From Trypanosoma brucei (Eukaryota): 64,000 nucleotides of DNA. Shown here one piece after another: positions 4,128 to 52,237 of this stretch. The translations under genes and the position numbers were made by a program. Each line of letters opens with the position of its first letter. Position 1 is the stretch's first letter. The stretch spans positions 1,376,001 to 1,440,000 of the forward strand of contig CP000067.1 in assembly GCA_000002445.1 (NCBI GenBank), written 5' to 3'. Under the pieces are notes generated by a model. That model did no database searches. It was not told where the DNA came from and was given only the letters and a program-made list of their open reading frames with translations.

Positions 4128-5168
4128 CTAAAAGAAGTACCTCAACAGCGTGCGTGTGGGCTCAATCCGTATGAAGCTACACATAAAATTTTCATCCACA
4201 CACATAAATGCACCGGCGTTATCAAACTCATCGCAGTAGTTCGGCGCAGAGAAAACTGTCACAAGCTGCCGTGCTGCGAAGAATTCATAACCCGCGTCCA
4301 CCACCTGGTGGGCACGGCAAATGAGGTCGAGGTCAAACTTCTTATTGAAAGACTTCACGACACTCTCACTAAAGGTCCACGACACGCCGCGGTCATTCTC
4401 ACTCCAGTTACTCTCCATATTCGTGCTGGGATCAGACCATAACAAATCGCATATCAGTCCACTATCGGGCACGTCCGTGGGGCGGAGAATGCGACGTATC
4501 TGATCGAGATCAGTGAGTTCAGGACTGAGCCCACCATGCATACAGAGGATACGTCCTTCAACCAATCCAGCCACTGGCATGCAGTTGAAAGTATCGGTGA
4601 ACTGTTTCCACAAGCGGACACTATACCGCCTCTTGCACTCATCGAAGAAACCGTATATACGGTTGATGCTACTACACTCGTGGTTGCCACGTAGGAGGAA
4701 GAAGGTCTCAGGGAAGCTCAACTTATATGCGAGCAAGAGACAGATTGTTTCCAATGACTGGTCGCCACGGTCTACATAGTCCCCGAGAAAAATGTAATTT
4801 GCATCTGGAGGGAAGCCTCCCAAGTCGAAGAGTCGCAGGAGGTCGGTGTACTGTCCGTGCACATCCCCGCAAATTCTCACGGGGGCGGCAATTTCTACTA
4901 GCATCGGCTGCGACATGAACAGCGCCCGGGACTCCATCACTAACCACCGCACCTCAGCCTCCGTTAACCCCTCTGTCGTTGCCCGTCCGGTTCCATTGGT
5001 TTTAGGAGTGCTTTCTTGTGTCTGGGCGCTCTGGAACGCGGCAAGGCGTGAGATGCGAGTGTACGTTCGTTGGTTGCTCTCGCAGTTCTCACCGGCAGGG
5101 CCCCGCGTAGCAGCAGTGTTGTGTACCGGATTGAGCAAGAGTTTCTTTATGATTTCGTCACAGTTCAT
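4128..5168 (-). CDS. PP1: Serine/threonine protein phosphatase PP1 catalytic subunit
   Basis: 346-aa ORF with a true ATG start. It carries the complete PPP-family motif set: GDVHGQ, GDYVDRG, LLRGNHE, SAPNYC, RG and HGG. Its position next to RPB1 matches the known T. brucei RPB1–PP1 linkage (recalled from the literature). Confidence 0.9.
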
Positions 5169-6356: not shown

Positions 6357-8174
6357 CTAGCGTCGCTCAATATCCTCGGTTACTTTTAAGCTTTGCCTCA
6401 CTACCGACTGCTCTAACCGGGTGGCTTCTAAATTCCGCTCCATCTCTTTTTGCTCGTGTGTGACCTCCGGCGATGAGGGGGCGCAGTCGCTTGCGTCGGA
6501 GCCGCCGGCTCGGCCGCGGGCACCGTGCGGTGGGCGCCATTCGGTGAGCGTTAGATTTGGCATCGTGTTGGGCTTGATGTTTGACCGGCCGAGAATCATA
6601 CGAATACATTCAACAAACCCTTGTACCACTGCCGGGTACGCTGCTGTCAGCTTCAGCAGTGAGTACACAGAATCTGACTGTCGAATGGCAAGTGACGCGA
6701 CTTCAACTATGCTTCCTGCGTGAGCCCCGACTGCGCGAACGCCTAGAAGCAGTTTCTGCCGGTCGTTTGTTACAATCACCTTACAAAATCCCTGTGCACC
6801 ACCCATTGCGATGGCACGGCTGAGATGGCTGTAGTCGTAACGCGCAACGATGTAACCGAACCCAAGAGCACGGCATTGTTCCTCGTTGAGTCCAACGCAA
6901 GCCACCTCCTCTTCGAGAAAGAGGATGGTGGAAAGGTTTGTGAGAAGAGAAGAATTAACCGGTCGCGCAGGTTTCTCCCCGTAAATGTGCTCAACAGCCC
7001 CTCGGCCTTGTGCCTCACCGAGGTTCACCAAACCCCGGTCAGCGGAAACATCACCAACAGCGTAAATGTGCTTGTAAGGGACACAACGACCAAAAGCATC
7101 CAGTGTAACCTGTCCGCCGGTGACCTTGCACGCAGTGTTCTCGAGGCCAAGGCCAGAGAGGTTTGGTGTGCGACCCAAAGACACCAGTGCTCGTTCTGCC
7201 TCATACGTCTCCACGCTATTTGCATCATTCCTATTATTCGTTGTGTTGTGTCGCACACTGTACACACATCCCCCAACATCGTCACTCTCCTCCCATGACT
7301 CTAGGTCAAACAGGGTACAGGTGTTGAGAATACGTACCCCCCGTCGCGTAAGATGCTCCTCGACAAAGTTTGCGATATCCTCGTCTTCCTTCGGAAGAAT
7401 CCGTTTGGCTTTGTCGATGATTGTCACTTCTGTGCGGCCAAAGTTGGCGTATATGCTGGCGAACTCACATCCCACTGCACCAGCTCCGATAATTACCAAG
7501 CTTGACGGGATGGGTAACTGCATGATGGTGTCCGTCGTCACGACTCGTCGGTGATCCGCTACAACGAATTCGTGTTGCCGTGGTACGGAGCCTGTAGCAA
7601 TAATGAAGTAATCAGCAGTAAGAACGTGATATTCATTTGCACCGGGGCTATGCACATCCAGTTCATGTGGTGAAGAAAACATAGCCCTTCCAAACACTGT
7701 TGTGACCCCGGCAGCCCGCAACAACTCAACAGTCTGAGTTTCCCGCGTTGCACTAACCTCTTGCAAGGTTTGTTGCACTCTTGATAGGTCCAGTTTCTGC
7801 TGAATTTCCCTCACCGTGTCGTCGTCGAAAACCCGCCGAGCTGACGCTCCGGAGAGAGAGGATACATACTTCGACATTTCCCACAACGTTTTTGACTGTA
7901 ATGCACCATCCCACAGATCGCAACCACCAATACGCTTTGCTTCTACAAGACAGACCCGTTTGTTGTAGTCCACAGCTCGTAGGGCTGCCGCAATGCCAGC
8001 GGGGCCGGCACCAATGACACAAACATCGAAACGAGGCAAATTTGAGGGGATATAACTGACGCAAGCTGATCTCAAGGAACATACCCGGCACAGCCGAATC
8101 ATCACTGTGGTAACGGTATTAATTACTAAAACTACGTGTGGGGGCGTTGTCACGTGAAATGTTGCAGAGATCAT
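6357..8174 (-). CDS. Dihydrolipoamide dehydrogenase-like FAD/NAD(P)-binding oxidoreductase, copy 1. Probably non-catalytic.
   Basis: The N-terminus has the FAD motif VCVIGAGPAGIAAALRA. A second Rossmann motif, VIIGAGAVGCEFAS, follows, and then HIYAVGDV. Where DLDH has GGTCLNVGCIPSK, this protein reads GGCDLWDGALQSK, so the C-x4-C redox pair is missing. Where DLDH has HAHPTLSE, it reads AAYPAVVQ, so the catalytic His is missing. The ORF-track start is GTG, so I moved the start to the first ATG (MISATF...). The N-terminal ~45 aa are rich in Arg, Ser and Cys and may be a mitochondrial presequence. Confidence 0.75.
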   Translation of the reverse strand: MISATFHVTTPPHVVLVINTVTTVMIRLCRVCSLRSACVSYIPSNLPRFDVCVIGAGPAGIAAALRAVDYNKRVCLVEAKRIGGCDLWDGALQSKTLWEMSKYVSSLSGASARRVFDDDTVREIQQKLDLSRVQQTLQEVSATRETQTVELLRAAGVTTVFGRAMFSSPHELDVHSPGANEYHVLTADYFIIATGSVPRQHEFVVADHRRVVTTDTIMQLPIPSSLVIIGAGAVGCEFASIYANFGRTEVTIIDKAKRILPKEDEDIANFVEEHLTRRGVRILNTCTLFDLESWEESDDVGGCVYSVRHNTTNNRNDANSVETYEAERALVSLGRTPNLSGLGLENTACKVTGGQVTLDAFGRCVPYKHIYAVGDVSADRGLVNLGEAQGRGAVEHIYGEKPARPVNSSLLTNLSTILFLEEEVACVGLNEEQCRALGFGYIVARYDYSHLSRAIAMGGAQGFCKVIVTNDRQKLLLGVRAVGAHAGSIVEVASLAIRQSDSVYSLLKLTAAYPAVVQGFVECIRMILGRSNIKPNTMPNLTLTEWRPPHGARGRAGGSDASDCAPSSPEVTHEQKEMERNLEATRLEQSVVRQSLKVTEDIERR

Positions 8175-8653
8175 AGGAAACACAGGAGGGCTGTTTATAC
8201 GGGAAAATTAAGGGGTGCTATTGATCAAACTAACGTTCTCTTCCTTCATACGCGATTACAACATATATTTCCCACCAGCTTTTTTAGCGTAAAAGGTACG
8301 TCCGGTTACTGGACTACACGTCACGCAAATAAACAGGGTCCAAGACGGAGGATCGACTCAAAGGAGAAAAATGATGTGTGATTTCATTGAGCGCTCCCTT
8401 GTTGTCTCATGAAAAGAGTAACTCTGGGAAGGGAGTGTACACGTCATTTTTTAAAAAAGGAATAAGTTGCGTTACGCGGAACGCGATTGGGCCATTCACC
8501 TTTCCAGTCAAGCGGACCCTCCTCGCGACCACTTGATGAACAGCAGCCATCCGCCCACCCGAAGGCAAACGGCAGCCCCACTCCAAGAACAGACATGCGT
8601 GTAAACTCCAGCCCACGTGTTCCCGACCTCTTCATGCCCGTCTGTTTTACCAC

Positions 8654-10360
8654 CTATTGTTTGCCACCGCCTTGAGCATTTCCCAGCGAACAATAGCCCC
8701 GACCTCGCTCACAGTCAGACGGAGTCCATGTATTGCAGACGAGACCGGGGAATGTACCAGGTTTTAACATGGATGTGCCCAATATGACGCGCAAGCACTC
8801 TAGAAATGCTTGTGAAACGGATGGGTACGCTGTGAGCATTTCACTCAGCTCGTATGCCGACTGTTTACGTTGAATCGCCGCGGTAGCGAACTCTACGATA
8901 GTACTTGCGCTCCATCCCACTACGTGAACGCCGAGAAGCGTCTTTTTACTGTCATTACTCGCGAGTATTTTTACAAACCCTTCGGTGTTGCTTGCAGCCA
9001 CGTTGCGACTGCAGAGTTCAAACCCATACTTGGCCACTACATACGATACATTTTTTGCTCTGCACTGCTTTTCGTTTTTTCCCACGGAAGCTACGGCACT
9101 GTCTAGGAATACAATTCTGGAATGGTCGGGGTGAAGCGGCTCCGTTATGTGTGAACTGTATATATGATCTACTGCCAACCGCCCCTTCGCTTCGCCCATA
9201 CTCACTGACCTGTCACGACCTGTTGCGTCTCCCACGGCGTAAATGTGTTTTTTGTTTACACACCTGCCAAATTCGTCTAGCACAAGTACCCCGTCGCGCA
9301 CTTCGCAGTTAGTATTACGTAGGCCCAGTCCGAAGTAATTCGGTCGGCGCCCAGTCACGGTGAGGCCCCGCTCCACTTCGTACGTCTGAAGTTCATGTGT
9401 CTTGCGGTGCATGATGGTATAGCGAACTCCATTCCCCGAGGTGCCGTCATTTGGTGTCTCCTGGCCATCACTCTCACTTTTGGTCAGTGATTGTAAGCTG
9501 TACAGCAAGCAATCTTGGTGCACCTCTACGCCATGCTTTTCCATTCCCTTCTGTATCGCTGCTGCCATATCATCATCTTCCTTCGGCATTATGCGCTCCT
9601 TCTTGTCTAGTAGAAACACCTTGGTCTTACCAAGCCTGCCGTATGTCATCGCGGATTCACTGCCAAGCGCGCCGCCACCCACCACTACCATGCTTTTTGG
9701 CAGCGGTAACGTCATAAGGTCATCGGAAGTCACCACGTTCTTGTGGTCCACGGGCACATGTGGCTGCGTGACAGGGGCAGAACCTGTGGCGATGATGAAA
9801 TAATCAGCCGTCACCGTTCGGTACTCCTTTGCCTCGCGGCTACTGACCTCTAACTCATGAGGGCTAGCAAAAGCGGCGCGACCGTAGAGTAACGCCACGT
9901 TAGAGGCGCTGAGGGCAGATAGTACCTGCTTTTCCCGCGTCTCGCTCACCTCTTGCAGTTTCTGCAGCATGCGTTCATCATCGAGTTCCATAAAATTTGA
10001 AATGGTAGTTCCATACACCCGTTCGGCGGAACTTCCCCTCGCGCGCCCCAAAAAGTTTGACATTTCCCACAACGTTTTCGACTGAAGTGTGCCATTCCAC
10101 AGATCGCAACCGCCAGTACGTTTTGCTTCTACAATTCAGACCCGTTTGTTGTAGTCCACAGCTCGTAGGGCTGCTGCAACGCCAGCGGGACCGGCGCCGA
10201 TGACACATACGTCGAAATGTGTTTTGCCGAGCGACTGCCAGTAGACGAGGTGTGGTCGCTGGTGCGTGAAGGAGAAACGTGTGTGCCGTAACACGGTAAT
10301 GATTCGTGCCAAAGTTACCTGATTTACACCCAGGCACCAAACCGAGCAGCGCGGGGTACC
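8654..10360 (-). pseudogene. Tandem second copy of the DLDH-like gene, disabled by an in-frame TGA and lacking any in-frame ATG upstream.
   Basis: The minus strand near 10190-10215 encodes FDVCVIGAGPAGVAAALRAVDYNKRV, followed by a TGA (the + strand reads tca at 10136-10138). Copy 1 has TGT CTT (Cys-Leu) at this position, so the stop is a point mutation. The frame then continues IVEAKRTGGCDLWNGTLQSKTLWEMS... and runs to 8654, covering ~470 aa that are homologous to copy 1 throughout. The upstream frame runs back to a TAG at about 10364 without meeting a Met. Confidence 0.7.
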
Positions 10361-24821: not shown

Positions 24822-27800
24822 TCATTTCCGGAACACGAACGTCGCCAGGAGACTTTTCTTGAGAACTTCCATTACCTCGCGAATGTTGTTGGCTTTTGTG
24901 CCGTTAACTTCCTCGAGGAACCACACGGGCTTTGACTGATACGTACGCATGAAGGGGTGCAAACGGCGTGGGTCTGAGAGCCTGTACATCGGTAAGGAAC
25001 CGATGGCCAGCGTTTTAACTGTCCAGTCGAACCGCAGGCCAATATCCCACGGAACATCCAAGCTTTGCCGTCGCACTACCAGTCGGTTCTCGTCAAACTT
25101 TTCGATCGCAACACTGCCGTTTGGAAAGATGAGAGCATTGGCAACCAAAGTTGCCTCCGACGGAGAGGAAACGGGTGTGACCGTGGGCAAACCGCTAACT
25201 CTACTCGTGGAAATGAGCGGCACGTCACCAACAGCTTGCGTGACAGCAGCTGCAGTCACATCACCTACCTTACAGACTGGTCTCTGGTTGCGGGCCATCA
25301 CCTGCTTTCTATATCTTTCTAACTTTTTCCTTGCTCTTTCATGTCGCTGCTGTTCAGATAAAGTGCATTCCTGGTTAGACGCAATCCGCGGAGGCCCGTC
25401 ACTGGCACGATTTCCTCCCAACCCCTCCTCTTCCACAACACATCCTTCTTCGTCGGAATTCTTGCGCCCAGCCCCACCCTCAGCCTTCATGCGCTCAGCC
25501 TCTTCCTCAGCCTTCATGCGCTCAGCCTCTTCTTCAGCCTTCATGCGCTTAACCTCTTCTTCAGCCTTCATGCGCTCAGCATCTTCTTCAGCCTTCATGC
25601 GCTCAGCCTCTTCCTCAGCCTTCATGCGCTCAGCCTCTTCCTCAGCCTTCATGCGCTTAACCTCTTCCTCAGCCTTCATGCGCTCAGCCTCTTCTTCAGC
25701 CTTCATGCGCTCAGCCTCTTCCTCAGCCTTCATGCGCTCAGCCTCTTCTTCAGCCTTCATGCGCTCAGCCTCTTCCTCAGCCTTCATGCGCTCAGCCTCT
25801 TCCTCAGCCTCCACGCGCTCAGCATCTTCTTCAGCCTTCATGCGCTCAGCCTCTTCTTCAGCCTTCATGCGCTCAGCCTCTTCTTCAGCCTTCATGCGCT
25901 CAGCATCTTCTTCAGCCTTCATGCGCTCAGCCTCTTCTTCAGCCTTCATGCGCTCAGCCTCTTCTTCAGCCTTCATGCGCTCAGCATCTTCTTCAGCCTT
26001 CATGCGCTCAGCATCTTCTTCAGCCTTCATGCGCTCAGCATCTTCTTCAGCCTTCATGCGCTCAGCCTCTTCCTTCTTTGTCCAAGCATCACTCTGAAGC
26101 TGGTTACGGGAAACCTTTTCTGCCATTCTGCGTGCACCTTTATTCGCTCGCTTCCGCAGAGTTTTTCGTGCTTCAGCAAGTTTTCGGGCTCTCTCAGCCT
26201 TCTTCCTGGCAGCTTCCTCCTCTGCTCTCTTCCTGGCAGCTTCCTCCTCAGCTTTCTTCCTGGCAGCTTCCTCCTCTGCTTTCTTTCTGGCAGCTTCCTC
26301 CTCTGCCTTCTTCCTGGCAGCTTCCTCCTCAGCCTTCTTCCTGGCAGCTTCCTCCTCTGCTTTCTTCCTGGCTGCTTCCTCCTCAGCCTTCTTCCTGGCA
26401 GCTTCCTCCTCTGCCTTCTTCCTGGCTGCTTCCTCCTCAGCCTTCTTCCTGGCAGCTTCCTCCTCAGCTCTCTTCCTGGCAGCTTCCTCCTCTGCTCTCT
26501 TCCTGGCTGCTTCCTCCTCTGCTTTCTTCCTGGCTGCTTCCTCCTCAGCCTTCTTCCTGGCAGCTTCCTCCTCTGCCTTCTTCCTGGCTGCTTCCTCCTC
26601 AGCCTTCTTCCTGGCAGCTTCCTCCTCAGCCTTCTTCCTGGCAGCTTCCTCCTCAGCTCTCTTCCTGGCAGCTTCCTCCTCAGCCTTCTTCCTGGCTGCT
26701 TCCTCCTCTGCTCTCTTCCTGGCTGCTTCCTCCTCAGCCTTCTTCCTGGCTGCTTCCTCCTCTGCTTTCTTCCTGGCAGCTTCCTCCTCAGCTTTCTTCC
26801 TGGCAGCTTCTTCGGCCTTCATGCGTGCCTTTCGTGCTTGAGCGCGTTTTCGCATCTTTTCAGCCTTCTTCCTGGCTGCTTCCTCCTCTGCTTTCTTCCT
26901 GGCAGCTTCCTCCTCTGCCTTCTTCCTGGCTGCTTCCTCCTCAGCTTTCTTCCTGGCAGCTTCCTCCTCTGCTCTCTTCCTGGCAACTTCCTCCTCTGCT
27001 TTCTTCCTGGCAGCTTCCTCCTCAGCCTTCTTCCTGGCTGCTTCCTCCTCAGCCTTCTTCCTGGCAGCTTCCTCCTCTGCTCTCTTCCTGGCAGCTTCCT
27101 CCTCTGCTCTCTTCCTGGCAGCTTCCTCCTCTGCCTTCTTCCTGGCAGCTTCCTCCTCTGCTCTCTTCCTGGCTGCTTCCTCCTCTGCTTTCTTCCTGGC
27201 AGCTTCTTCGGCCTTCATGCGTGCGTTTCGTGCTTGAGCGCGTTTTCGCATTTTTTCAGCTTTCTTCCTGGCAGCTTCCTCCTCTGCTTTCTTCCTGGCT
27301 GCTTCCTCCTCAGCTTTCTTCCTGGCAGCTTCCTCCTCTGCTTTCTTCCTGGCAGCTTCCTCCTCTGCTTTCTTCCTGGCAGCTTCCTCCTCAGCTTTCT
27401 TCCTGGCAGCTTCCTCCTCAGCTTTCTTCCTGGCTGCTTCCTCCTCAGCTTTCTTCCTGGCAGCTTCCTCCTCTGCTCTCTTCCTGGCTGCTTCCTCCTC
27501 AGCTTTCTTCCTGGCAGCTTCCTCCTCAGCTTTCTTCCTGGCTGCTTCCTCCTCAGCTTTCTTCCTGGCAGCTTCCTCCTCTGCTCTCTTCCTGGCAGCT
27601 TCCTCCTCTGCTTTCTTCCTGGCAGCTTCCTCCTCTGCTTTCTTCCTAGCTGCTTCTTCTGCTTTCTTCGCCGTGGTATCTTTCTCTCTCATTCGACTTC
27701 TCGCAGATAATTTCTTAGCGCGTTTCCTTTCCCCATCTGTTTTCGAGCGCTTTTGCCGAGTTTCCAACCTTTCCATCGAAGCCTTCTTCGTTGCTGTGTT

Positions 27801-28958
27801 AAACGCAGTTTCGTCTGTCACTATGTTCATGTTGTTTTTCTGAAATGTTTTTACATCGACAAATGCGGAGAGAATGGGTCTGCTCACGGAGCTGTTGACG
27901 CGCTTCTGTTTTAGCGCATCACCGTTGTTCCGAGCTCTTTCAACTTCACCGGGGGTTTGACACACAAAATCCTTGCTATATACGGGCCCATCCCCATAAT
28001 TTAATCCCTGTGAATGCATTTCGGGGACGTTTCGGGGAAGCACGCTGGAGATGGCGAGATGTGCGGGGGTCGTCACGCTTTGTTTGGTGTGATTGATGCC
28101 GTTTTTCGTGGAAGTCAACTCCACCACTGACGGAGGGAAAGTTGTGTCGCCTTTGGGCTGCCTGGATTCAAATCCTCGTGGGGCGGCATGCGCTTGATGC
28201 CTTGACCCGTTCAAATCGTAGTGGGTCTCAACCTGTGTTCCCTTCGGCCCTTCGACACAATGAGTTGCGCCGATATTTCCCGTAGCCATTGAGAGCGCTG
28301 TACCACCCCTCCAAAGCCGCTGCCGCTCCTCCAGCGCGCTTACAGTCATCTGGACCGCAGTGGTTTGTACGGGAGCAGCCGTCATAGTGGCTGTTTCTGA
28401 AATTCTGGTGTCCACATCAGGTTTTGGAAGTTGGCACTGCGTCCCCTGGTGTTGTTTCATGCTCTTGAATGCCCCCACATCTCCCTGCGCGGTCGGCTCC
28501 GTTTTTTTCTTTGCTTCTGCAACCAACTTGCTGGCATCATCAGAAACCTCTGTTGTGGGCTTACAGTGCATCCCTAGTTGCTGATGTCCCGTTGTCTTGG
28601 TGCCAACTGTCCCCCTTTCCTTATCAGTTACAGACCGTGACTTGGGGTCAATGCCATCGCTAAACTTCGCCACTCCGGGGCGATGTGCCTCGTCAAGCGA
28701 CTTCGGCGGCATCAATGCGGTTTCGAGTTTGAAAGCAGTTGAATTAACAGTCGGAGCAACTCCCGTCGACTGCACTTCTGGTGTGGCAGCGGTTGGGGGG
28801 TTGACGCCGAAGGGCGTGTTCTGATGCTCATACGTGGCCTTACGCCCCTCATGTTGGTGCTGCGCTACTGTCGGTGATAGCGAAGACTTTGGAGTCACAA
28901 GTTTCTGTGCGTGAGCAGCCGTATGGTGGTGGTGACGGCGATGGCGGCGAGCAGCCAT
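24822..28958 (-). CDS. Giant repetitive protein of about 1379 aa. It has a non-repetitive N-terminal domain, about 60 tandem AEEEAARKK 9-mers and about 25 AERMKAEE(E/D) 9-mers, and a ~200-aa C-terminal domain.
   Basis: Single long ORF on the PTU strand. The track start is GTG, so I trimmed to the ATG (MAARRHRRHHHH...). The 27-nt repeats are perfect and visible in the DNA at 25475-26075 and 26190-27660. The antisense ORFs across this region are repeat artefacts. Confidence 0.75.
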   Translation of the reverse strand: MAARRHRRHHHHTAAHAQKLVTPKSSLSPTVAQHQHEGRKATYEHQNTPFGVNPPTAATPEVQSTGVAPTVNSTAFKLETALMPPKSLDEAHRPGVAKFSDGIDPKSRSVTDKERGTVGTKTTGHQQLGMHCKPTTEVSDDASKLVAEAKKKTEPTAQGDVGAFKSMKQHQGTQCQLPKPDVDTRISETATMTAAPVQTTAVQMTVSALEERQRLWRGGTALSMATGNIGATHCVEGPKGTQVETHYDLNGSRHQAHAAPRGFESRQPKGDTTFPPSVVELTSTKNGINHTKQSVTTPAHLAISSVLPRNVPEMHSQGLNYGDGPVYSKDFVCQTPGEVERARNNGDALKQKRVNSSVSRPILSAFVDVKTFQKNNMNIVTDETAFNTATKKASMERLETRQKRSKTDGERKRAKKLSARSRMREKDTTAKKAEEAARKKAEEEAARKKAEEEAARKRAEEEAARKKAEEEAARKKAEEEAARKKAEEEAARKRAEEEAARKKAEEEAARKKAEEEAARKKAEEEAARKKAEEEAARKKAEEEAARKKAEEEAARKKAEEEAARKKAEKMRKRAQARNARMKAEEAARKKAEEEAARKRAEEEAARKKAEEEAARKRAEEEAARKRAEEEAARKKAEEEAARKKAEEEAARKKAEEEVARKRAEEEAARKKAEEEAARKKAEEEAARKKAEEEAARKKAEKMRKRAQARKARMKAEEAARKKAEEEAARKKAEEEAARKKAEEEAARKRAEEEAARKKAEEEAARKRAEEEAARKKAEEEAARKKAEEEAARKKAEEEAARKKAEEEAARKKAEEEAARKRAEEEAARKRAEEEAARKKAEEEAARKKAEEEAARKKAEEEAARKKAEEEAARKKAEEEAARKKAEEEAARKKAEEEAARKKAEEEAARKRAEEEAARKKAERARKLAEARKTLRKRANKGARRMAEKVSRNQLQSDAWTKKEEAERMKAEEDAERMKAEEDAERMKAEEDAERMKAEEEAERMKAEEEAERMKAEEDAERMKAEEEAERMKAEEEAERMKAEEDAERVEAEEEAERMKAEEEAERMKAEEEAERMKAEEEAERMKAEEEAERMKAEEEVKRMKAEEEAERMKAEEEAERMKAEEDAERMKAEEEVKRMKAEEEAERMKAEEEAERMKAEGGAGRKNSDEEGCVVEEEGLGGNRASDGPPRIASNQECTLSEQQRHERARKKLERYRKQVMARNQRPVCKVGDVTAAAVTQAVGDVPLISTSRVSGLPTVTPVSSPSEATLVANALIFPNGSVAIEKFDENRLVVRRQSLDVPWDIGLRFDWTVKTLAIGSLPMYRLSDPRRLHPFMRTYQSKPVWFLEEVNGTKANNIREVMEVLKKSLLATFVFRK
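25475..26075. repeat. Perfect 27-nt tandem repeats encoding AERMKAEE(E/D), in the C-terminal part of the same protein.
   Basis: Repeated cttcatgcgctcagc(c/a)tcttc(c/t)tcagc units. Confidence 0.9.
26190..27660. repeat. Perfect 27-nt tandem repeats encoding AEEEAARK(K/R). Two interrupters (KAEKMRKRAQARNARMKAEE) at about 26810-26870 and 27180-27250 split the run into three blocks.
   Basis: Visible directly in the sequence (gcagcttcctcctc(a/t)gc(c/t)(t/c)tcttcctg). Confidence 0.9.
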
Positions 28959-29977
28959 AAATTCTTGATTCAGGGATGGGATGAAAAGTGAATGGGAAAA
29001 GAGGGATTTCAACTTCAGAAAGTGAGAAGACGCCAAGGAAAGAAGAGGCCTCAAACCAGAGAGGTTAACAAGCGTCTCTAGGCAATGCCCCAACACACAA
29101 CCGCTGGACACCAGTGAATAAGGCGTTCAAAATAGACTTTAACAAACAGTTTAAACTGAAACTCATACATGCATACATTACATGCCAACTCTTGCAGCAA
29201 CCGAACGAACGGAATGACCTCTTGTATTCGGTGGCAGGCGAGTAACGTAGCATTTGGTAAAAGTTCGCTACAACAAACAAATTCACTGTGTGACTGCCCC
29301 TTCTTGTTTCTTTTCAACGTTGCGCATCGGCCTTCTTGACAAATACGTTGCTCACGGGCACACTCCTTCACATATAAGAGTTGAAGGAGAATATATGAAA
29401 GGGTACTGGACAGGAAATGGACACTGACAGGCATCACTTTTTGTGTAGTTTACCGGTGTAATAATTTCCATAGAGAAACCCACAACCCACGTTGCCCAAG
29501 TCTGTGCGGCGGGAAGAAATGCAGGGGGAAAGGAAGTAATAGCATACCTGCGTAAGCTATGCGTCAACGGTGCTTACTGACGTCGATCCCTTTGGCACGC
29601 GGCGGCGGCAGCTTCAACTTCAGATCCAAAAAATATGTTTGACAAAGGACGGTTTGAGTCACTTCCCTGTTGTTATAACATGTCACAGTTCAATAACCAG
29701 CAAAAGATGTTGACTTTTTTTTTGTTGTCCCCAGTAGCCTCAGCCGATACTTTAACCTTCAAACCCGGAAGATTGGTTCACCCCGCACGCTTCAGCACCC
29801 TCGCTTATTTCATTCCCACACAGCACAACCTCCCGTTCCGCAGCTGAGCAGTGCTGAAACACAAAGAAAACAAAAGGAAATGCACATTGTACTGATTGGT
29901 CGACGAAACGCACCAAAAACAAAAAACGGATCGGCAGGGAGTTAATAACTCTTGGAAGCGCTGTTTTGAAAAAAAAA

Positions 29978-42432: not shown

Positions 42433-44358
42433 TCAGGAGGAAGCGACGCGTTGGTAGATGGCCCGCATATCTGCTGCATCACGTTCCAACAATTCGCTTA
42501 GACCCTCCACACACTGTTGTATGCGCTCTGCAAATCGCGCCCAGTCCCTCAACAGGGCCTGATCTACACGGTTATTCCGCAGGGTACCAACACCTTCTGA
42601 AGGTGTGCAAATGGCGCCCTCTGATCCACCCACCGAATTCCTGCGAAGGAAAGATGTGATAGTTGAAGACTCCGCGTCCAGGAACGGCTGCAATTCTGTC
42701 AACGCCGTCTTGTACATACCTGGTGCCGAGAGTTGGGCACTAAGGGTACTAGCTATGCCGCCCATGCGACTTTCTTCTGCAAGTGGCAGACCCAACTGTC
42801 GCAGAGTCTCTACCTTCATTAACAACGAGTACCAACGGCGCTGAAGCATTGCTTGCTCCTGCTGCAGTTCACGATACTGCGCTGCATTAGCTTCATCAAG
42901 TTCACGGAAGTGGTCAGCTTTCGTTGCAAGCGAATCCACATGCCTTGACATCGCTTCCAGTATCTCTTTCTGCTTCTCTACGCGGTTCTTCAGCTCCTGC
43001 ATGAAGTGCACTCTCGTTGGGTACAAGTGGACGGGATCGGGGTTACGCTGTTGAGCCCGTAGGAGGTCCTCTTCCTTACATTCGCCACCAGCCGCCGCAT
43101 AAATAAGCCGTTCCCGCTCAACCGCCATGATGGATTGCCCAGGTGCACAGACATTGTAAAGAAAGGACCGAAAGCGGCAATTAGGATGCATGGCATTGTA
43201 AGCATGATCAATTTCCAACAGGTAGCGACCCACGGCACTTTGGCAATTGATAACCTGTTGTTGAGAGGCGCCTACCGCATTGGGGCGGGACTCAGCACCA
43301 GCCGCTGTTGAACCAAAAAATGAAACACTTGCGGTTCCAAACCCACCTGCAGTGTTCGGACCAGCTCCGAACCCCCCAGATCCCAAACCACCGGCGGTGT
43401 TGAACCCACTACCAAATCCTCCAGTTGTGGCGGTATTGGCTCCTGCACCAAATCCTCCAGTTGTGACAGTGTTGGCTCCTGCACCAAATCCTCCAGTTGT
43501 GGCGGTGTTGGCTCCTGCACCAAATCCTCCAGTTGTGGCGGTATTGGCTCCTGCACCAAATCCTCCAGTTGTGGCGGTGTTGGCTCCTGCACCAAATCCT
43601 CCAGTTGTGGCGGTATTGGCTCCTGCACCAAATCCTCCAGTTGTGACAGTGTTGGCTCCTGCACCAAATCCTCCAGTTGTGGCGGTGTTGGCTCCTGCAC
43701 CAAATCCTCCAGTTGTGACAGTGTTGGCTCCTGCACCAAATCCTCCAGTTGTGGCGGTATTGGCTCCTGCACCAAATCCTCCAGTTGTGGCGGTGTTGGC
43801 TCCTGCACCAAATCCTCCAGTTGTGACAGTGTTGGCTCCTGCACCAAATCCTCCAGTTGTGGCGGTGTTGGCTCCTGCACCAAATCCTCCAGTTGTGGCG
43901 GTGTTGGCTCCTGCACCAAATCCTCCAGTTGTGGCGGTATTGGCTCCTGCACCAAATCCTCCAGTTGTGGCGGTGTTGGCTCCTGCACCAAATCCTCCAG
44001 TTGTGGCGGTGTTGGCTCCTGCACCAAATCCTCCAGTTGTGGCGGTATTGGCTCCTGCACCAAATCCTCCAGTTGTGACAGTGTTGGCTCCTGCACCAAA
44101 TCCTCCAGTTGTGGCGGTGTTGGCTCCTGCACCAAATCCTCCAGTTGTGACAGTGTTGGCTCCTGCACCAAATCCTCCAGTTGTGGCGGTATTGGCTCCT
44201 GCACCAAATCCTCCAGTTGTGGCGGTGTTGGCTCCTGCACCAAATCCTCCAGTTGTGGCGGTGTTGAATCCACTACCGAACCCTCCTGCCGTTGAGCAGG
44301 CCGGAGCGCCAAAACCACCAGGCGCACCACGACCAAAGCCTGATCCCAGCACACTCAT
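42433..44358 (-). CDS. NUP62: FG-repeat nucleoporin with an Nsp1/Nup62-type C-terminal coiled-coil domain
   Basis: About 641 aa starting at the ATG MSVLGSGFGRG. Roughly 25 perfect 12-aa repeats GGFGAGANT(A/V)TT (36 nt) follow. The C-terminal ~270 aa is a heptad-rich domain (LLRAQQRNPDPV...ELKNRVEKQKEILEAMSRHVDSLATKADHFRELDE...). Its position next to a TLK matches my recollection that T. brucei TbNup62 sits beside TLK1, but I could not verify this. Confidence 0.8.
   Translation of the reverse strand: MSVLGSGFGRGAPGGFGAPACSTAGGFGSGFNTATTGGFGAGANTATTGGFGAGANTATTGGFGAGANTVTTGGFGAGANTATTGGFGAGANTVTTGGFGAGANTATTGGFGAGANTATTGGFGAGANTATTGGFGAGANTATTGGFGAGANTATTGGFGAGANTATTGGFGAGANTVTTGGFGAGANTATTGGFGAGANTATTGGFGAGANTVTTGGFGAGANTATTGGFGAGANTVTTGGFGAGANTATTGGFGAGANTATTGGFGAGANTATTGGFGAGANTATTGGFGAGANTVTTGGFGAGANTATTGGFGSGFNTAGGLGSGGFGAGPNTAGGFGTASVSFFGSTAAGAESRPNAVGASQQQVINCQSAVGRYLLEIDHAYNAMHPNCRFRSFLYNVCAPGQSIMAVERERLIYAAAGGECKEEDLLRAQQRNPDPVHLYPTRVHFMQELKNRVEKQKEILEAMSRHVDSLATKADHFRELDEANAAQYRELQQEQAMLQRRWYSLLMKVETLRQLGLPLAEESRMGGIASTLSAQLSAPGMYKTALTELQPFLDAESSTITSFLRRNSVGGSEGAICTPSEGVGTLRNNRVDQALLRDWARFAERIQQCVEGLSELLERDAADMRAIYQRVASS
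43380..44260. repeat. 36-nt tandem repeats, about 25 copies, encoding the FG motif GGFGAGANT(A/V)TT of the nucleoporin.
   Basis: Repeated ccaaatcctccagttgtg(g/a)c(g/a)gt(a/g)ttggctcctgca units. Long antisense ORFs at 43272-44354 (-) and 43280-44467 (+) are repeat artefacts. Confidence 0.9.
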
Positions 44359-44656
44359 AGACTTTCCTTTCCTTTTTTCCTTAACTTTAAACCATACAAA
44401 TAACAATAGAGAAAGAGTTCTTCACAGCGATAATAGCAATACCCATTTGATCCGTCGCATGATCTAGTATTCTAGGGAAAACACAAGTTTCTGCCACCTC
44501 ACAACTTTCATGCCAACTGAGAACAGCAAAATTCACAAATTTCGAACATAGGTAACATCGCAGTCGTCGCTTTCCTCCCGCCGTCTTTTTATCAGCTCTT
44601 GTATCCAGGAGTCGGGCTGTCATACGACACTAAAGTGGCCTTTCCTTGCTTCGCGC

Positions 44657-49329: not shown

Positions 49330-50478
49330 TCAATGCTGAAAACAAGGTAGCGTGCCGCTACCGGGATACAACCATCGAACCGCCGACGGTTTATCTCCTC
49401 CTTCCCCAACAGGAAAGATATCGAACAACTCATTGTAATGTTCCTCACTAACATGGTGTATCACAACAGATTTATTTGAAATGTATTTTCTAACGCTACC
49501 AGGACCCGCATTGTGAAACCGGCACGCTTTCGTATCCACACTTATTAGGTTTCTGTACACTACCTTTTCTCTCAGTATCATTCCAACCATCACATCTTCA
49601 TAGAACATGCCAAGATCAAGAAAGTCAAAATAGTCCCACATAGAAAAGGGCATGTTCACTAGACGCTCAAGAGGTTTATACGAAATGATGGCTTGTGCAG
49701 TGTCCCTGGAGAGAGTAATGCAATATCCGTTCACATATGTAAGTTGGTTACGCCGCCATATCCGGTTATAGTAGTTGTAACGACCCATATACAAACCATG
49801 ACGAGGCATTACACGAAGGTCCGCAAGGTATTTTGGAACACGAATAAATATGTCATCATCACCCTTCACAATGTAACTTACGTTAGGAAACATGTGAAGA
49901 GCAAATCGAAGCCACAAATATGTTTTCCGGCTCATCGCAACCTCAGCCTCAATTCCCCAGTTTCCATTCTCACCAATCTTCTTCCGTGTGGATGGAGAGA
50001 CATCATTTGTTGGTAGTGTAATAATGTCATGTGTACGTGCGGCCTCTTCCTTTAGTGAGTGTGAAATCAAATAACTGTTTGACTGATGTGGTGCGAGAAG
50101 ATATAATGGCAGGAGACTCCCACTAAAGTTGTTTGATCGTGTGGCCACGCCACTATACTTCCAGCATGTCTGTCGCTGCAAGTCACGCCGCCTGCTTCTC
50201 TCACTGTTGTCCACAGAAGGAATTCCAAGGACGGCTAGGAATCTTTGTGCCTTCCACACGGCAGCAACATTAGACGGAACGAACATCAAATATTCATCCT
50301 CGTCTATCGGTTGTGAAACTCCAGCCTGATTTTCATCTAAAAAAGTAGATACCACATGAATTCTATGTAAGTTGCAGCAGATAATCAAGAGTGACATCAC
50401 AAGTAGAAGTATCACTGCTATGTCTGCTGTACGTGGCCTCCTCCTCGCTTGTGTTGGTCGCATCTTCAGCGGTGACAT
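49330..50478 (-). CDS. UDP-Gal/UDP-GlcNAc-dependent glycosyltransferase (GT67/beta3GT-like), array copy 1, with a divergent C-terminus.
   Basis: This copy matches the array consensus from the ATG (MSPLKMRPTQARRRPRTADIAVILLLVMSLLIICC) through the DxD motif YIVKGDDDIFIRV and the EDVMVGMIL motif. The last ~70 aa differ (…ISVDTKACRFHNAGPGSVRKYISNKSVVIHHVSEEHYNELFDIFPVGEGGDKPSAVRWLYPGSGTLPCFQH). DNA identity to the other units breaks at about 49545. Confidence 0.8.
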   Translation of the reverse strand: MSPLKMRPTQARRRPRTADIAVILLLVMSLLIICCNLHRIHVVSTFLDENQAGVSQPIDEDEYLMFVPSNVAAVWKAQRFLAVLGIPSVDNSERSRRRDLQRQTCWKYSGVATRSNNFSGSLLPLYLLAPHQSNSYLISHSLKEEAARTHDIITLPTNDVSPSTRKKIGENGNWGIEAEVAMSRKTYLWLRFALHMFPNVSYIVKGDDDIFIRVPKYLADLRVMPRHGLYMGRYNYYNRIWRRNQLTYVNGYCITLSRDTAQAIISYKPLERLVNMPFSMWDYFDFLDLGMFYEDVMVGMILREKVVYRNLISVDTKACRFHNAGPGSVRKYISNKSVVIHHVSEEHYNELFDIFPVGEGGDKPSAVRWLYPGSGTLPCFQH

Positions 50479-51034
50479 GTCTACAAAGAAGTTATCGAGG
50501 GAAAAACAATTTAAATTGGCAAATGCGAGAATTCGCGCAGTCGTTAGCAACACAATTAGCTGACAAATTCATGTTCATCACAATTCAATGTAGACCGCTA
50601 TGAAAGAACTCATAAAGGTCGTATGAGGCATGAGGATATACGTCCACGAGGGAGACATTTGAAATCATGAATATCTCAACAGTTATTAAACTTTACAACT
50701 TAAGTAGGACATCCACTCCCAAACTAGGCAATATTTTAAAAGTTACATTTGGGGGAAAGGGACCGTTAATCACGGTTTCGAACGATACCCAAAAACTGTT
50801 CATAACCAAACCTCCCAGTTTTGACCGAAACGAAACGGCGTAACTGTCATGTGATCAACAAATGAGTTCCAAGGAAAAATAATCAACGAACGGTATAGTA
50901 TGCCGTCGGTTATTACACACAGACACACACACACAGAAAGTAACTAAAGTGTTTCAGGAATAGGAGTGACGCTAATACAATCCTAACAAACTATAGGGTG
51001 AGGGATCTCATAGTTCCCAAGCAACCTCAATAAT

Positions 51035-52237
51035 TCAGGCCCTCTTACGCCAAAAGGGAAAAGAAGGTAGGATTTCTCTTTTCCGTCCAAGTCGGAATTC
51101 ACACTGCATCGCCGCCCAATTGCTATTCAACCACATTAGCTTTGAGGGTGCCGGTGGTATTACACCTTCAGGAAAGTAGTCCATTAACATTTCGTAATCG
51201 GCTTCCTGTATGTGGTGTATCACAACAGACATGTTCCTAACGCTCTTCTTCACACCAAACTTGCCCGCATTGTGAAAGTGACAACGACCCATCTCCACAC
51301 TTATTAGGTTTCTGTACACTACCTTTTCTCTCAGTATCATTCCAACCATCACATCTTCATAGAACATGCCAAGATCAAGAAAGTCAAAATAGTCCCACAT
51401 AGAAAAGGGCATGTTCACTAGACGCTCAAGAGGTTTATACGAGATGATGGCTTGTGCAGTGTCCCTGGAGAGAGTAATGCAATATCCGTTCACATATGTA
51501 AGTTGGTTACGCCGCCATATCCGGTTATAGTAGTTGTAACGACCCATATACAAACCATGACGAGGCATTACACGAAGGTCCGCAAGGTATTTTGGAACAC
51601 GAATAAATATGTCATCATCACCCTTCACAATGTAACTTACGTTAGGAAACATGTGAAGAGCAAACCGAAGCCACAAATATGTTTTCCGACTCATCGCAAC
51701 CTCAGCCTCAATTCCCCAGTTTCCATTCTCACCAATCTTCTTCCGTGTGGATGGAGAGACATCATTTGTTGGTAGTGTAATAATGTCATGTGTACGTGCG
51801 GCCTCTTCCTTTAGTGAGTGTGAAATCAAATAACTGTTTGACTGATGTGGTGCGAGAAGATATAATGGCAGGAGACTCCCACTAAAGTTGTTTGATCGTG
51901 TGGCCACGCCACTATACTTCCAGCATGTCTGTCGCTGCAAGTCACGCCGCCTGCTTCTCTCACTGTTGTCCACAGAAGGAATTCCAAGGACGGCTAGGAA
52001 TCTTTGTGCCTTCCACACGGCAGCAACATTAGACGGAACGAACATCAAATATTCATCTTCGTCTATCGGTTGTGAAACTCCAGCCTGATTTTCATCTAAA
52101 AAAGTAGATACCACATGAATTCTATGTAAGTTGCAGCAGATAATCAAGAGTGACATCACAAGTAGAAGTATCACTGCTATGTCTGCTGTACGTGGCCTCC
52201 TCCTCGCTTGTGTTGGTCGCATCTTCAGCGGTGACAT
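51035..52237 (-). CDS. UDP-Gal/UDP-GlcNAc-dependent glycosyltransferase (GT67/beta3GT-like), array copy 2.
   Basis: About 400 aa from the first ATG; the track start at 52310-52312 is GTG. It has type II topology, with a short basic cytoplasmic tail and a single transmembrane segment. The DxD motif is GDDD, and the beta3GT ED(V)xxG motif is YEDVMVGMIL. This is one unit of the 1759-bp tandem repeat. Confidence 0.85.
   Translation of the reverse strand: MSPLKMRPTQARRRPRTADIAVILLLVMSLLIICCNLHRIHVVSTFLDENQAGVSQPIDEDEYLMFVPSNVAAVWKAQRFLAVLGIPSVDNSERSRRRDLQRQTCWKYSGVATRSNNFSGSLLPLYLLAPHQSNSYLISHSLKEEAARTHDIITLPTNDVSPSTRKKIGENGNWGIEAEVAMSRKTYLWLRFALHMFPNVSYIVKGDDDIFIRVPKYLADLRVMPRHGLYMGRYNYYNRIWRRNQLTYVNGYCITLSRDTAQAIISYKPLERLVNMPFSMWDYFDFLDLGMFYEDVMVGMILREKVVYRNLISVEMGRCHFHNAGKFGVKKSVRNMSVVIHHIQEADYEMLMDYFPEGVIPPAPSKLMWLNSNWAAMQCEFRLGRKREILPSFPFWRKRA

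What the first reader, a model, noticed from the sequence alone, without database searches (positions are those of the whole stretch)
6357..10360. Tandem pair of DLDH-like flavoproteins that have lost the catalytic residues; copy 2 (8654..10360) is also a pseudogene
Copy 1 (6357..8174) keeps both Rossmann folds (GAGPAG…, GAGAVGCEFAS) and the HIYAVGDV motif. The redox-active CLNVGC disulfide is missing: it reads CDLWDGA in copy 1 and CDLWNGT in copy 2. The C-terminal HAHPT…E dyad is also missing: it reads AAYPAVVQ in copy 1 and TAYPSVSQ in copy 2. Copy 1 therefore looks like a dead pyridine-nucleotide-disulfide oxidoreductase that has been kept as a binding protein or scaffold. Copy 2 carries an in-frame TGA where copy 1 has Cys (TGT to TGA at 10136-10138), and it has no in-frame ATG upstream.
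Basis: partly seen in the sequence, partly recalled or inferred. Interest (0 to 1): 0.6.

Follow-up and report, generated by a model that had tools for sequence, protein, structure and literature searches.

The report
Disulfide-less LipDH-like gene plus decaying duplicate
This is the annotated Trypanosoma brucei chromosome 4 pair Tb927.4.5040 and Tb927.4.5050: an expressed mitochondrial flavoprotein from an old family that never had the lipoamide dehydrogenase active-site cysteines, beside a redundant duplicate already published as a decaying pseudogene, so the finding is real but ordinary.

Summary
Two tandem minus-strand LipDH-like genes keep the FAD and NAD motifs. Both lack the CxxxxC disulfide and the His-Glu dyad. 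Copy 2 has an in-frame TGA at 10136-10138 and no ATG.

The pseudogene call is right and was published by Jackson (2007, BMC Genomics 8:432). The tandem pair predates the chromosome 4/8 duplication. Chromosome 8 deleted copy 1 and kept an intact copy 2 (Tb927.8.7380). Chromosome 4 kept copy 1 (Tb927.4.5040) and is losing copy 2 (Tb927.4.5050). ATG-to-GTG is shared by three strains. The TGA is private to this strain, and another strain has a different stop.

The "dead scaffold" reading of copy 1 is not supported. No CxxxxC occurs in 59 family proteins or in 78 bacterial loci, so its absence characterises a widespread bacterial and kinetoplastid subfamily. The cofactor motifs are invariant, and dN/dS is about 0.04. 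The protein is detected in cells and depends on mitochondrial import. Known disulfide-less relatives (SthA, Mtb LpdA) are named as active enzymes, and activity is reported for the Leishmania paralogue GCVL-1. Copy 1 is most likely an NAD(P)H flavoenzyme with an unknown acceptor that is not a disulfide. Novelty is low.

The parts
6357..8174 (-). Copy 1, an intact gene equal to Tb927.4.5040 ('dihydrolipoamide dehydrogenase, putative'). It encodes 605 aa from the annotated ATG at 8174. Orthologues suggest Met25 at 8102 as the real start.
   Evidence: ORF. Reported as 100% identical (rounded BLASTP value) to P0001. The mass of 66,008 Da equals that of Q584K1/Tb927.4.5040 in the Peikert 2017 supplement. 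Pfam Pyr_redox_2, Pyr_redox and Pyr_redox_dim. AF2 model has pLDDT 88.
7890..7928 (-). GGCDLWDGALQSK, the segment that replaces the LipDH redox-active GGxCLNxGCIPSK. Asp and Ala sit in the two Cys columns.
   Evidence: Alignments. Family-wide motif table.
6621..6644 (-). AAYPAVVQ, the segment that replaces HAHPT..E. Tyr is in the His column and Gln in the Glu column. E. coli SthA also has Tyr there (FNYPTMAE).
7455..7487 (-). NAD(P)-binding GxGxxGxE motif (GAGAVGCEFAS). It is followed by ...VTIID, with an acidic residue at the end of the second strand.
   Evidence: G203, G205, G208 and E210 are invariant (G206, G208, G211, E213). Sequence shown.
6510..6578 (-). Family-specific C-terminal tail (..KPxxxPxLxxxxWxPxxxxRGR) beyond the canonical LipDH end. 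A long helix specific to copy 1 follows it.
   Evidence: Consensus. Motif table. Secondary structure.
8654..10294 (-). Copy 2, a pseudogene equal to Tb927.4.5050. It runs from the former start codon to the stop codon. It is 98% identical in nucleotides to the intact chromosome 8 gene Tb927.8.7380.
10292..10294 (-). GTG where the chromosome 8 paralogue and six other Trypanosoma species have the ATG start. The change is shared by all three chromosome 4 alleles examined.
10136..10138 (-). In-frame TGA in the second strand of the FAD Rossmann fold (RV*IV). The other two strains have TGC or TGT here, so the TGA is private to this strain.
9647..9679 (-). Damaged NAD-binding motif in copy 2, GGGALGSESAM. 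The Phe of GxGxxGxEF has become Ser in all chromosome 4 alleles. Phe is invariant in chromosome 8 and in six other species.
7870..8031 (-). N-terminal tract of copy 1 that is 88-94% identical in nucleotides to copy 2 (10059-10217). The rest of the two genes is about 50% identical at protein level, so this is probably a gene-conversion tract between the tandem paralogues.
8638..10314 (-). Extent of the 98%-identity tract shared with chromosome 8. It starts about 20 nt upstream of the former ATG and ends 16 nt past the stop. The flanks are unalignable.
   Evidence: The upstream neighbour genes are only 35% identical in protein.
6413..8637 (-). The roughly 2.2 kb segment missing from chromosome 8. 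It comprises the intergenic spacer and all of copy 1 except its last 56 nt or so.
4128..5168 (-). PP1-type Ser/Thr phosphatase gene. It is the conserved downstream neighbour and serves as the synteny anchor.

Best explanation
The locus is the Trypanosoma brucei chromosome 4 pair Tb927.4.5050 (pseudogene) and Tb927.4.5040. They are two ancient tandem paralogues of a distinct subfamily of lipoamide-dehydrogenase-like flavoproteins that has no redox-active disulfide. The subfamily is shared with many bacteria.

Copy 1 is a functional, expressed, mitochondrially imported protein. It keeps every FAD-binding and NAD(P)H-binding element. By inference it works as an NAD(P)H-dependent flavoenzyme that passes reducing equivalents from the flavin directly to an acceptor that is not a disulfide. 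That is the same logic as in soluble transhydrogenase and M. tuberculosis LpdA. It is unlikely to be an inert scaffold. The acceptor is unknown.

Copy 2 on chromosome 4 is a redundant duplicate in decay. After the chromosome 4/8 segmental duplication, chromosome 8 deleted copy 1 and kept copy 2 (Tb927.8.7380). Chromosome 4 kept copy 1 and lost the start codon of copy 2. Different strains have since added different stop codons.

Shown: gene identities, synteny, the lesions, selection, expression, and absence of the Cys pair in every family sequence examined. Inferred: catalytic competence and the type of reaction.
For: Identity and history:
- Copy 1 is reported as 100% identical (rounded) to P0001.
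- The locus lies on T. b. gambiense chromosome 4 (FN554967.1). The intact copy 2 paralogue P0033 lies on chromosome 8 (FN554971.1), followed directly by PP1.
- Chromosome 8 has a clean 2.2 kb deletion of copy 1.
- Jackson 2007 describes exactly this history.
- The tandem pair next to PP1 is also found in T. congolense, T. cruzi and L. major.

Pseudogene:
- ATG-to-GTG occurs in three alleles.
- The TGA is private to this strain, and L001 has its own CAA-to-TAA stop.
- Derived changes M1V, T112K, F214S, A310G and I312T fall at sites invariant in six species. Five such changes arose on chromosome 4 against one on chromosome 8.
- Between strains, copy 2 shows 6-11 nonsynonymous and 6-7 synonymous differences, while copy 1 shows 0 and 5-6. 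For the pair window versus L001 the Fisher test gives p=0.016.

Copy 1 is not dead:
- 0 of 59 family proteins and 0 of 78 bacterial loci have CxxxxC, yet the substitute motif is conserved.
- GxGxxG, the acidic FAD-ribose ligand, SK, GxGxxGxE and GD are invariant, including in E. coli Lpd and SthA.
- SthA also has Tyr in the His column.
- dN/dS between T. brucei and T. congolense is about 0.04.
- The AF2 model has pLDDT 88 and a full LipDH fold, with TM 0.94 to 6uzi.
- The Peikert 2017 supplement reports 16-18 peptides and 32-43% coverage, and lists the protein among proteins reduced after ATOM40 knock-down (ratio 0.43).
- The paralogue GCVL-1 is reported to act on the LipDH substrate with lower activity, and is described as 'not a classical class-I' enzyme (with references).
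Against: There is no biochemical or genetic data for Tb927.4.5040 itself or its direct orthologues. The only main-text paper naming Tb927.4.5040 was an in silico drug-target list.

Kinetoplastid members have also lost the His-Glu pair that the bacterial members keep. A further loss of chemistry in the eukaryotic branch therefore cannot be excluded.

Bacterial gene neighbourhoods give no consistent functional clue.

The between-strain dN/dS of copy 2 (0.3-0.5) is below 1, so strict neutrality is not demonstrated. Counts are small, and gene conversion from functional copies may contribute.

The dS between T. brucei and T. congolense is saturated (2.4), so 0.04 is approximate.
Confidence: 0.72

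Rival explanations
1. One reading: copy 1 is a catalytically dead pyridine-nucleotide-disulfide oxidoreductase, a pseudoenzyme retained as a nucleotide-binding protein, regulator or scaffold.
For: All four LipDH catalytic residues are absent: both Cys, the His and the Glu. The kinetoplastid branch lost the His-Glu pair that bacterial relatives retain. No activity data exist for this clade. From general knowledge, trypanosomes do use pseudoenzyme partners, such as the AdoMetDC and DHS prozymes.
Against: Absence of the disulfide is shared by the whole bacterial and kinetoplastid family, and a new conserved motif stands in its place. The cofactor-binding residues are invariant. SthA lacks the full Cys pair and has Tyr in the His column. 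SthA and Rv3303c LpdA are named as enzymes in NCBIfam and PDB. The paralogue GCVL-1 is reported active. Strong purifying selection acts along the whole protein.
Confidence: 0.2
2. Copy 1 is still a genuine, if weak, lipoamide dehydrogenase (E3). It would use an unconventional thiol such as the shifted Cys in GGC.
For: The Leishmania GCVL-1 paralogue is said to act on the same substrate as true LipDH. Copy 1 has a Cys one column before the first catalytic Cys.
Against: That Cys is Ala, Val, Thr or other residues in orthologues and paralogues, so it is not conserved. The TIGR01350 score is 292.5 against a cut-off of 408.8. No second Cys and no His-Glu are present. The bacterial homologues examined do not sit next to 2-oxoacid dehydrogenase E1 or E2 genes.
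Confidence: 0.06
3. Copy 2 is a functional gene. The TGA would be a selenocysteine or read-through codon, or a sequencing error, and translation would start at a non-ATG codon.
For: The TGA aligns with a Cys codon in paralogues, which is the classic Sec signature. Copy 2 is 98% identical to a functional gene. The T. b. gambiense allele has no internal stop.
Against: No SECIS or any other Rfam family is found anywhere in the window. The Cys is a non-catalytic residue in a Rossmann strand. Other strains have TGT or TGC there. The ATG is lost in all three assemblies. The next in-frame ATG would remove the FAD-binding fold. L001 has an independent stop. Invariant residues, including the NAD-motif Phe, are replaced.
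Confidence: 0.02

Closest known systems
Dihydrolipoyl (lipoamide) dehydrogenase, the E3 component (TIGR01350; for example T. cruzi LipDH 2qae, E. coli Lpd, T. brucei Tb927.11.16730)
   Same: It has the same three-domain fold (Foldseek TM 0.94 to 6uzi and to 2qae; rmsd 2.2 and 2.0 A) and the same FAD and NAD Rossmann motifs, conserved Lys and GD motif. This is the best-scoring curated family.
   Different: Identity is only about 25%. The score is below the family cut-off. There is no CxxxxC and no His-Glu dyad. A conserved C-terminal tail is added. The bacterial members examined do not sit next to E1/E2 genes.
Soluble pyridine nucleotide transhydrogenase SthA/UdhA (NF003585; PDB 9n4y)
   Same: It is a LipDH-like flavoprotein without the full redox-active disulfide (GGGCTHWGTIPSK). 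It has Tyr in the catalytic His column (FNYPTMAE), as the trypanosome proteins do. It is the second-best NCBIfam hit.
   Different: The score is 236 against a cut-off of 465. SthA keeps the first Cys and the Glu. The NAD-domain strand ends in Asn-Thr-Arg in SthA and in Asp-Lys in this family. SthA lacks the C-terminal tail.
M. tuberculosis LpdA Rv3303c-type NAD(P)H-quinone dehydrogenase (NF005883; PDB 1xdi)
   Same: It is a flavoprotein-disulfide-reductase homologue that NCBIfam names as an NAD(P)H-quinone dehydrogenase, and it is the third-best curated hit. From memory of Argyrou et al. 2004, which I did not check here, it lacks one catalytic Cys and the His-Glu pair yet reduces quinones.
   Different: The score is 213 against a cut-off of 479. 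It is not a member, only an analogue in logic.
Kinetoplastid paralogues of the same subfamily: Tb927.3.4390 / Leishmania GCVL-1 (LdBPK291950.1), and Tb927.8.7380 / LmjF.31.2650 ('acetoin dehydrogenase E3 component-like')
   Same: They are 46-50% identical to copy 1 and share the GG[ACV]D[LF]W[ND]G..QSK and AYP..Q motifs and the C-terminal tail. Tb927.8.7380 is the intact counterpart of copy 2. GCVL-1 has been studied and is called non-classical.
   Different: Copy 1 and its Trypanosoma orthologues carry a longer, partly helical C-terminal extension. No functional study of this clade was found.

Membership tests
Dihydrolipoyl dehydrogenase (E3, TIGR01350) | Whole-protein score at or above the curated cut-off | tested here: not met
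   292.5 bits against a cut-off of 408.8 for copy 1. P0033 scores 280.5, and bacterial relatives score 336-365.
Dihydrolipoyl dehydrogenase (E3, TIGR01350) | Redox-active CxxxxC next to the flavin | tested here: not met
   Asp and Ala occupy the two Cys columns. The motif is absent in 59 of 59 family proteins and 78 of 78 bacterial loci.
Dihydrolipoyl dehydrogenase (E3, TIGR01350) | His-Glu dyad (HxHPxxxE) in the interface domain | tested here: not met
   Copy 1 has AAYPAVVQ and copy 2 has TAYPSVSQ.
Dihydrolipoyl dehydrogenase (E3, TIGR01350) | FAD and NAD Rossmann folds and the overall three-domain fold | tested here: met
   Pfam domains, invariant motifs, AF2 model and Foldseek TM 0.94.
Dihydrolipoyl dehydrogenase (E3, TIGR01350) | Binding to the E2 or E3BP subunit-binding domain, and NADH:lipoamide activity | not testable with these tools
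   This needs biochemistry. The bacterial homologues examined are not next to E1/E2 genes.
Soluble transhydrogenase SthA (NF003585) | Score at or above the curated cut-off | tested here: not met
   235.6 against 465.
Soluble transhydrogenase SthA (NF003585) | No full Cys pair, and Tyr in place of the catalytic His | tested here: met
   Alignment A1. This is a resemblance in logic and not proof of membership.
LpdA-type NAD(P)H-quinone dehydrogenase (NF005883) | Score at or above the curated cut-off | tested here: not met
   212.6 against 479.
Trypanothione reductase (TIGR01423) | Score at or above the curated cut-off, and a Cys pair | tested here: not met
   62 against 738.1. There is no Cys pair.
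Pyridine nucleotide-disulphide oxidoreductase superfamily (Pfam PF07992, PF00070, PF02852) | All three domains score above the gathering thresholds | tested here: met
   152.5, 69.4 and 60.1 bits.
Pseudogene (copy 2) | Loss of the start codon and/or premature stops | tested here: met
   GTG in three alleles, TGA in this strain and TAA in L001.
Pseudogene (copy 2) | Relaxed constraint compared with functional paralogues or orthologues | tested here: met
   Five derived changes at invariant sites on chromosome 4 against one on chromosome 8. Nonsynonymous/synonymous counts are 11/7 for copy 2 and 0/6 for copy 1, p=0.016. dN/dS stays below 1.
Pseudogene (copy 2) | No protein product from this allele | not testable with these tools
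   The proteomics data group Tb927.8.7380 and Tb927.4.5050 together because their peptides are shared.
Selenoprotein gene (copy 2 TGA) | SECIS element, and a conserved in-frame TGA | tested here: not met
   No Rfam hit in the window. The TGA is absent from the other strains.

The most novel reading that the evidence does not exclude
The three kinetoplastid disulfide-less LipDH-like proteins (Tb927.4.5040, Tb927.8.7380 and Tb927.3.4390) may descend from a widespread but uncharacterised bacterial family (motif GGAG[IVL][FHYW][ND]GALSSK; found in Myxococcota, Bacteroidota, Burkholderiales and SAR324), possibly by lateral transfer. In that case they would form a new class of mitochondrial NAD(P)H flavoenzymes with a reaction not yet described. 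One possibility is a soluble transhydrogenase that balances mitochondrial NADH and NADPH. Another is a quinone or other small-molecule reductase. The usual annotation as a redundant E3 would then be wrong.
Probability: 0.35. Interest if true: 0.55.

Novelty: already known. Interest (0 to 1): 0.25.

Why it matters
The practical value is a correction of annotation. Genes labelled "dihydrolipoamide dehydrogenase", "acetoin dehydrogenase E3" or "GCVL-1" in trypanosomatid genomes cannot work as classical E3 enzymes. They should not be counted as back-ups for the true LipDH in metabolic models or drug-target lists, as one in silico target list does and as a Leishmania DLD knock-out discussion suggests.

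The locus is also a clean textbook case of reciprocal gene loss after a segmental duplication. Different strains carry different disabling mutations, and there are signs of gene conversion.

The real open question is what chemistry this conserved disulfide-less subfamily performs in the mitochondrion and in many bacteria. That question can be tested directly with recombinant protein.

Tried and rejected
- Selenocysteine or read-through at the TGA. An Rfam gathering scan of the whole window found nothing. The TGA is strain-private and the start codon is missing. Rejected.
- A solved structure of a close relative. Single-sequence and profile searches of the PDB return only canonical LipDH, MerA, STH and GR at about 25% identity. 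No family member has been solved.
- Functional clues from bacterial gene neighbourhoods. Three metagenomic contigs and 80 genome loci show no universal neighbour. Only lineage-specific contexts appear.
- Literature on Tb927.4.5040. Only an in silico target list names it in a main text. The Roldan 2011 LipDH paper and the two Chiranjivi papers are not held. Their content is cited only through PMC11949353 and its reference list.
- Organism names for metagenomic eukaryote-type members. The cluster look-up gave no names.
- dN/dS of copy 2 against T. congolense. The values are invalid because the T. congolense contig has a frameshift near L010 4655-4667. Amino-acid polarisation with six outgroup species was used in its place.
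- Identity of the window strain. It is neither DAL972 nor GCA_003543875.1, from which it differs by 5-6 nt in copy 1 and 13-20 nt in copy 2. TREU927 is plausible but was not verified.

Full report
**Observation.** The region holds two head-to-tail genes on the minus strand. Copy 1 is an uninterrupted frame at 6357..8183, with the annotated ATG at 8174 (605 aa). Copy 2 reads in one frame from 10360 to its stop at 8654-8656. It contains one TGA at 10136-10138, and no ATG lies between the upstream in-frame stops and that TGA. Both copies match Pyr_redox_2, Pyr_redox and Pyr_redox_dim; copy 1 scores E=2e-44. Copy 1 hits solved lipoamide dehydrogenases at E=2e-46. HMMER alignments to Thermus, Elizabethkingia and M. 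tuberculosis LipDH, and a MAFFT alignment with E. coli Lpd and SthA, give the same picture. Asp and Ala fall in the two catalytic Cys columns. The single Cys of GGCDLW lies one column too early. Tyr and Gln fall in the His and Glu columns.

**Identity of the locus.** Copy 1 is reported as 100% identical (rounded) to a T. brucei gambiense protein named "dihydrolipoamide dehydrogenase, putative" (P0001). It lies on chromosome 4 (FN554967.1). Its mass of 66,008 Da equals that listed for Tb927.4.5040 / Q584K1. The window is a T. brucei strain close to, but not the same as, DAL972 and GCA_003543875.1. A protein almost identical to copy 2 but intact (P0033, 546 aa, "acetoin dehydrogenase e3 component, putative") is encoded on chromosome 8 (FN554971.1). 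There it is followed directly by the PP1 phosphatase and RPB1 genes that also follow copy 1 in the window.

**History of the duplicates.** Jackson (2007) describes this case. The locus was a tandem duplicate before the 0.5 Mb chromosome 4/8 duplication. [quoted passage not shown]

The tandem pair next to PP1 is also present in other species:
- T. congolense has copy 2-type, then copy 1-type, then PP1.
- L. major has LmjF.31.2650, then P0039 ("2-oxoglutarate dehydrogenase E3 component, LipDH-like"), then PP1.
- T. cruzi has the two paralogues in swapped order.

**Copy 2 is a pseudogene.**
- Start codon: all three chromosome 4 alleles read GTG where chromosome 8 and six other Trypanosoma species have ATG.
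- Stop codons: the TGA is private to this strain, since the others have TGC or TGT. Allele L001 carries a different stop (CAA to TAA, codon 199 of the frame read from 10360; window 9766). The gambiense allele has no internal stop.
- Shared derived replacements: T112K, F214S in the GxGxxGxEF NAD motif, A310G and I312T all hit residues invariant in six species. Counting M1V, five such changes arose on chromosome 4 and one on chromosome 8. This agrees with Jackson's relative-rate test.
- Between strains: copy 2 shows 6-11 nonsynonymous and 6-7 synonymous differences, while adjacent copy 1 shows 0 and 5-6. For window versus L001 the Fisher test gives p=0.016.
- No Rfam family, including SECIS, is found in the window, so selenocysteine is rejected.

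**Deletion and gene conversion.** Chromosome 8 lacks window 8637..6413. This is a clean deletion that runs from 16 nt after the copy 2 stop to about 56 nt before the copy 1 stop. The copy 2 coding sequences on chromosomes 4 and 8 are 98% identical (dS 0.035). By contrast, the PP1 paralogues have dS 0.17, the flanks are unalignable, and the upstream neighbour proteins are 35% identical. This points to recent gene conversion confined to the coding sequence, so the decay is young. The between-strain dN/dS of 0.3-0.5 does not by itself prove neutrality.

**Copy 1 is not a decayed enzyme.** The homology search shows three kinetoplastid paralogue groups: the copy 1 type, the copy 2 or "acetoin E3" type, and the GCVL-1 / Tb927.3.4390 type. 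It also shows bacterial proteins at about 40% identity. True LipDH is only about 25% identical.

- None of 59 aligned members has CxxxxC. Eukaryotic members have GG[ACV]D[LF]W[ND]G[AT]LQSK and AYP..Q. Bacterial members have GGAGVHNGALSSK and keep HPHP..E.
- A scan of bacterial genomes found the family in Myxococcota (including cultured Enhygromyxa salina), Bacteroidota, Burkholderiales (Limnohabitans), SAR324 and others. None of the 78 loci examined has a Cys pair.
- Lack of the Cys pair is therefore a trait of the whole subfamily, and a different conserved motif occupies that position.
- The FAD GxGxxG, the acidic ribose ligand, Ser-Lys, the NAD GxGxxGxE and the GD motif are invariant, including in E. 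coli Lpd and SthA.
- SthA also has Tyr in the His column.
- Against curated NCBIfam models, copy 1 scores below the cut-off for LipDH (292/409), STH (236/465), LpdA-type quinone dehydrogenase (213/479), MerA, GR and TR. It is a member of none of them.
- An AlphaFold model built on the family alignment is confident (pLDDT 88, pTM 0.84). It superposes on LipDHs with TM 0.94. A conserved C-terminal strand and tail and a long helix specific to copy 1 are added.
- No family member is in the PDB.

**Selection, expression and location.**
- dN/dS for copy 1 between T. brucei and T. congolense is about 0.04. Since dS is saturated, this value is approximate.
- In the Peikert et al. 2017 supplements, Tb927.4.5040 is identified with 16-18 peptides and 32-43% coverage.
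- It is listed among the new mitochondrial candidates that drop after ATOM40 knock-down (ratio 0.43), as is Tb927.3.4390.
- Tb927.8.7380 is in the mitochondrial reference set.
- Orthologues start with MLRR-type N-termini, which resemble mitochondrial presequences. That resemblance is my inference.

**Related literature.** A 2025 Leishmania DLD paper cites Chiranjivi and Dubey (2018). According to that citation, GCVL-1 acts on the same substrate as true DLD with lower activity. The same reference list contains Chiranjivi et al. [quoted passage not shown] I could not read those two papers. LmjF.31.2650 / Tb927.8.7380 appears in the gene table of a study of lateral gene transfer in Leishmania.

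**Mechanism.** It is shown that copy 1 is conserved, expressed, dependent on mitochondrial import and structurally complete, and that it keeps both nucleotide sites. I infer that it binds FAD, is reduced by NAD(P)H, and transfers electrons from the flavin directly to an acceptor that is not a disulfide. The Asp at the end of the NAD-domain strand suggests a preference for NADH. This matches the logic of SthA and of M. tuberculosis LpdA (enzyme names; biochemical detail from memory). The acceptor is unknown. I give the pseudoenzyme/scaffold alternative about 0.2. Its main support is that the kinetoplastid branch also lost the His-Glu pair that the bacterial members keep.

**Verdict.** The pseudogene interpretation is correct but already published. 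The "dead enzyme" interpretation is probably wrong. Novelty is low, because the genes are annotated, the duplication history is described and the non-classical nature of a paralogue has been reported. The chemistry of this disulfide-less subfamily remains open, which is the only part of moderate interest.

Noticed in passing
window 7870-8031 and 10059-10217: The first 160 nt or so that encode the FAD-binding fold are 88-94% identical between the two tandem paralogues, while the rest of the two genes is about 50% identical at protein level. T. vivax paralogues P0003 and P0028 share 49 of 50 residues here, including species-specific ones. This suggests recurrent gene conversion of the N-terminus between the tandem copies.
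   Followed up: partly
window 10116-10180: Five substitutions private to this strain cluster within 65 nt of copy 2, and one of them creates the TGA. They match neither copy 1, nor chromosome 8, nor the other chromosome 4 alleles. The other two alleles carry three copy 1-like bases at 10175, 10112 and 10096. The origin of the cluster (micro-conversion, mutation burst or assembly error) is unresolved.
   Followed up: partly
window 8638-10314 versus L003 9981-11657: Copy 2 on chromosomes 4 and 8 is 98% identical (dS 0.035), with sharp borders about 20 nt before the start and 16 nt after the stop. The neighbouring PP1 paralogues have dS 0.17, and the upstream neighbour proteins are 35% identical. 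This implies recent inter-chromosomal gene conversion between a pseudogene and its functional paralogue.
   Followed up: partly
L010 4655-4667 (T. congolense IL3000 contig CAEQ01001367.1): The copy 2 orthologue in this T. congolense assembly changes reading frame mid-gene, and its UniProt name carries the label 'point mutation'. This could be a sequencing error or an independent pseudogenisation.
   Followed up: no
L011 6001-10600 (T. cruzi): The order of the two paralogues relative to the PP1 gene is swapped (copy 1-type, copy 2-type, PP1) compared with T. brucei, T. congolense and L. major.
   Followed up: no
L035, L040, L042, L047, L058 and related Burkholderiales loci: In seven Burkholderiales genomes the bacterial family member sits between a 5-hydroxyisourate hydrolase (transthyretin family) gene and the xanthine dehydrogenase genes xdhA and xdhB, with a GntR/FCD regulator upstream. 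This is a purine-catabolism cluster and a possible functional lead for the bacterial enzymes. In seven Flavobacteriales loci the neighbour is a di-haem cytochrome c peroxidase.
   Followed up: partly
window 24822-29111 (-): A 1429-aa ORF contains two long arrays of 27-nt (9-aa) tandem repeats, at 25459-26072 (23 copies) and 26193-27656 (55 copies). It has a C-terminal DUF7759 domain. The repeats cause the strong GC and AT skew at 26-28 kb.
   Followed up: partly
window 42433-44406 (-): An ORF with a Nup54 domain, probably an FG-nucleoporin, carries a 36-nt repeat in 24 copies at 43411-44266.
   Followed up: partly
window 49330-60843 (-): A tandem array of at least five 425-aa ORFs repeats with a period of 1759 bp, flanked by shorter related ORFs. 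The ORFs give a weak galactosyltransferase (PF01762) match.
   Followed up: partly
window 8102-8174: The annotated N-terminal 24 residues of copy 1 have no counterpart in orthologues, which begin at the position of Met25. The annotated start may be too far upstream.
   Followed up: no
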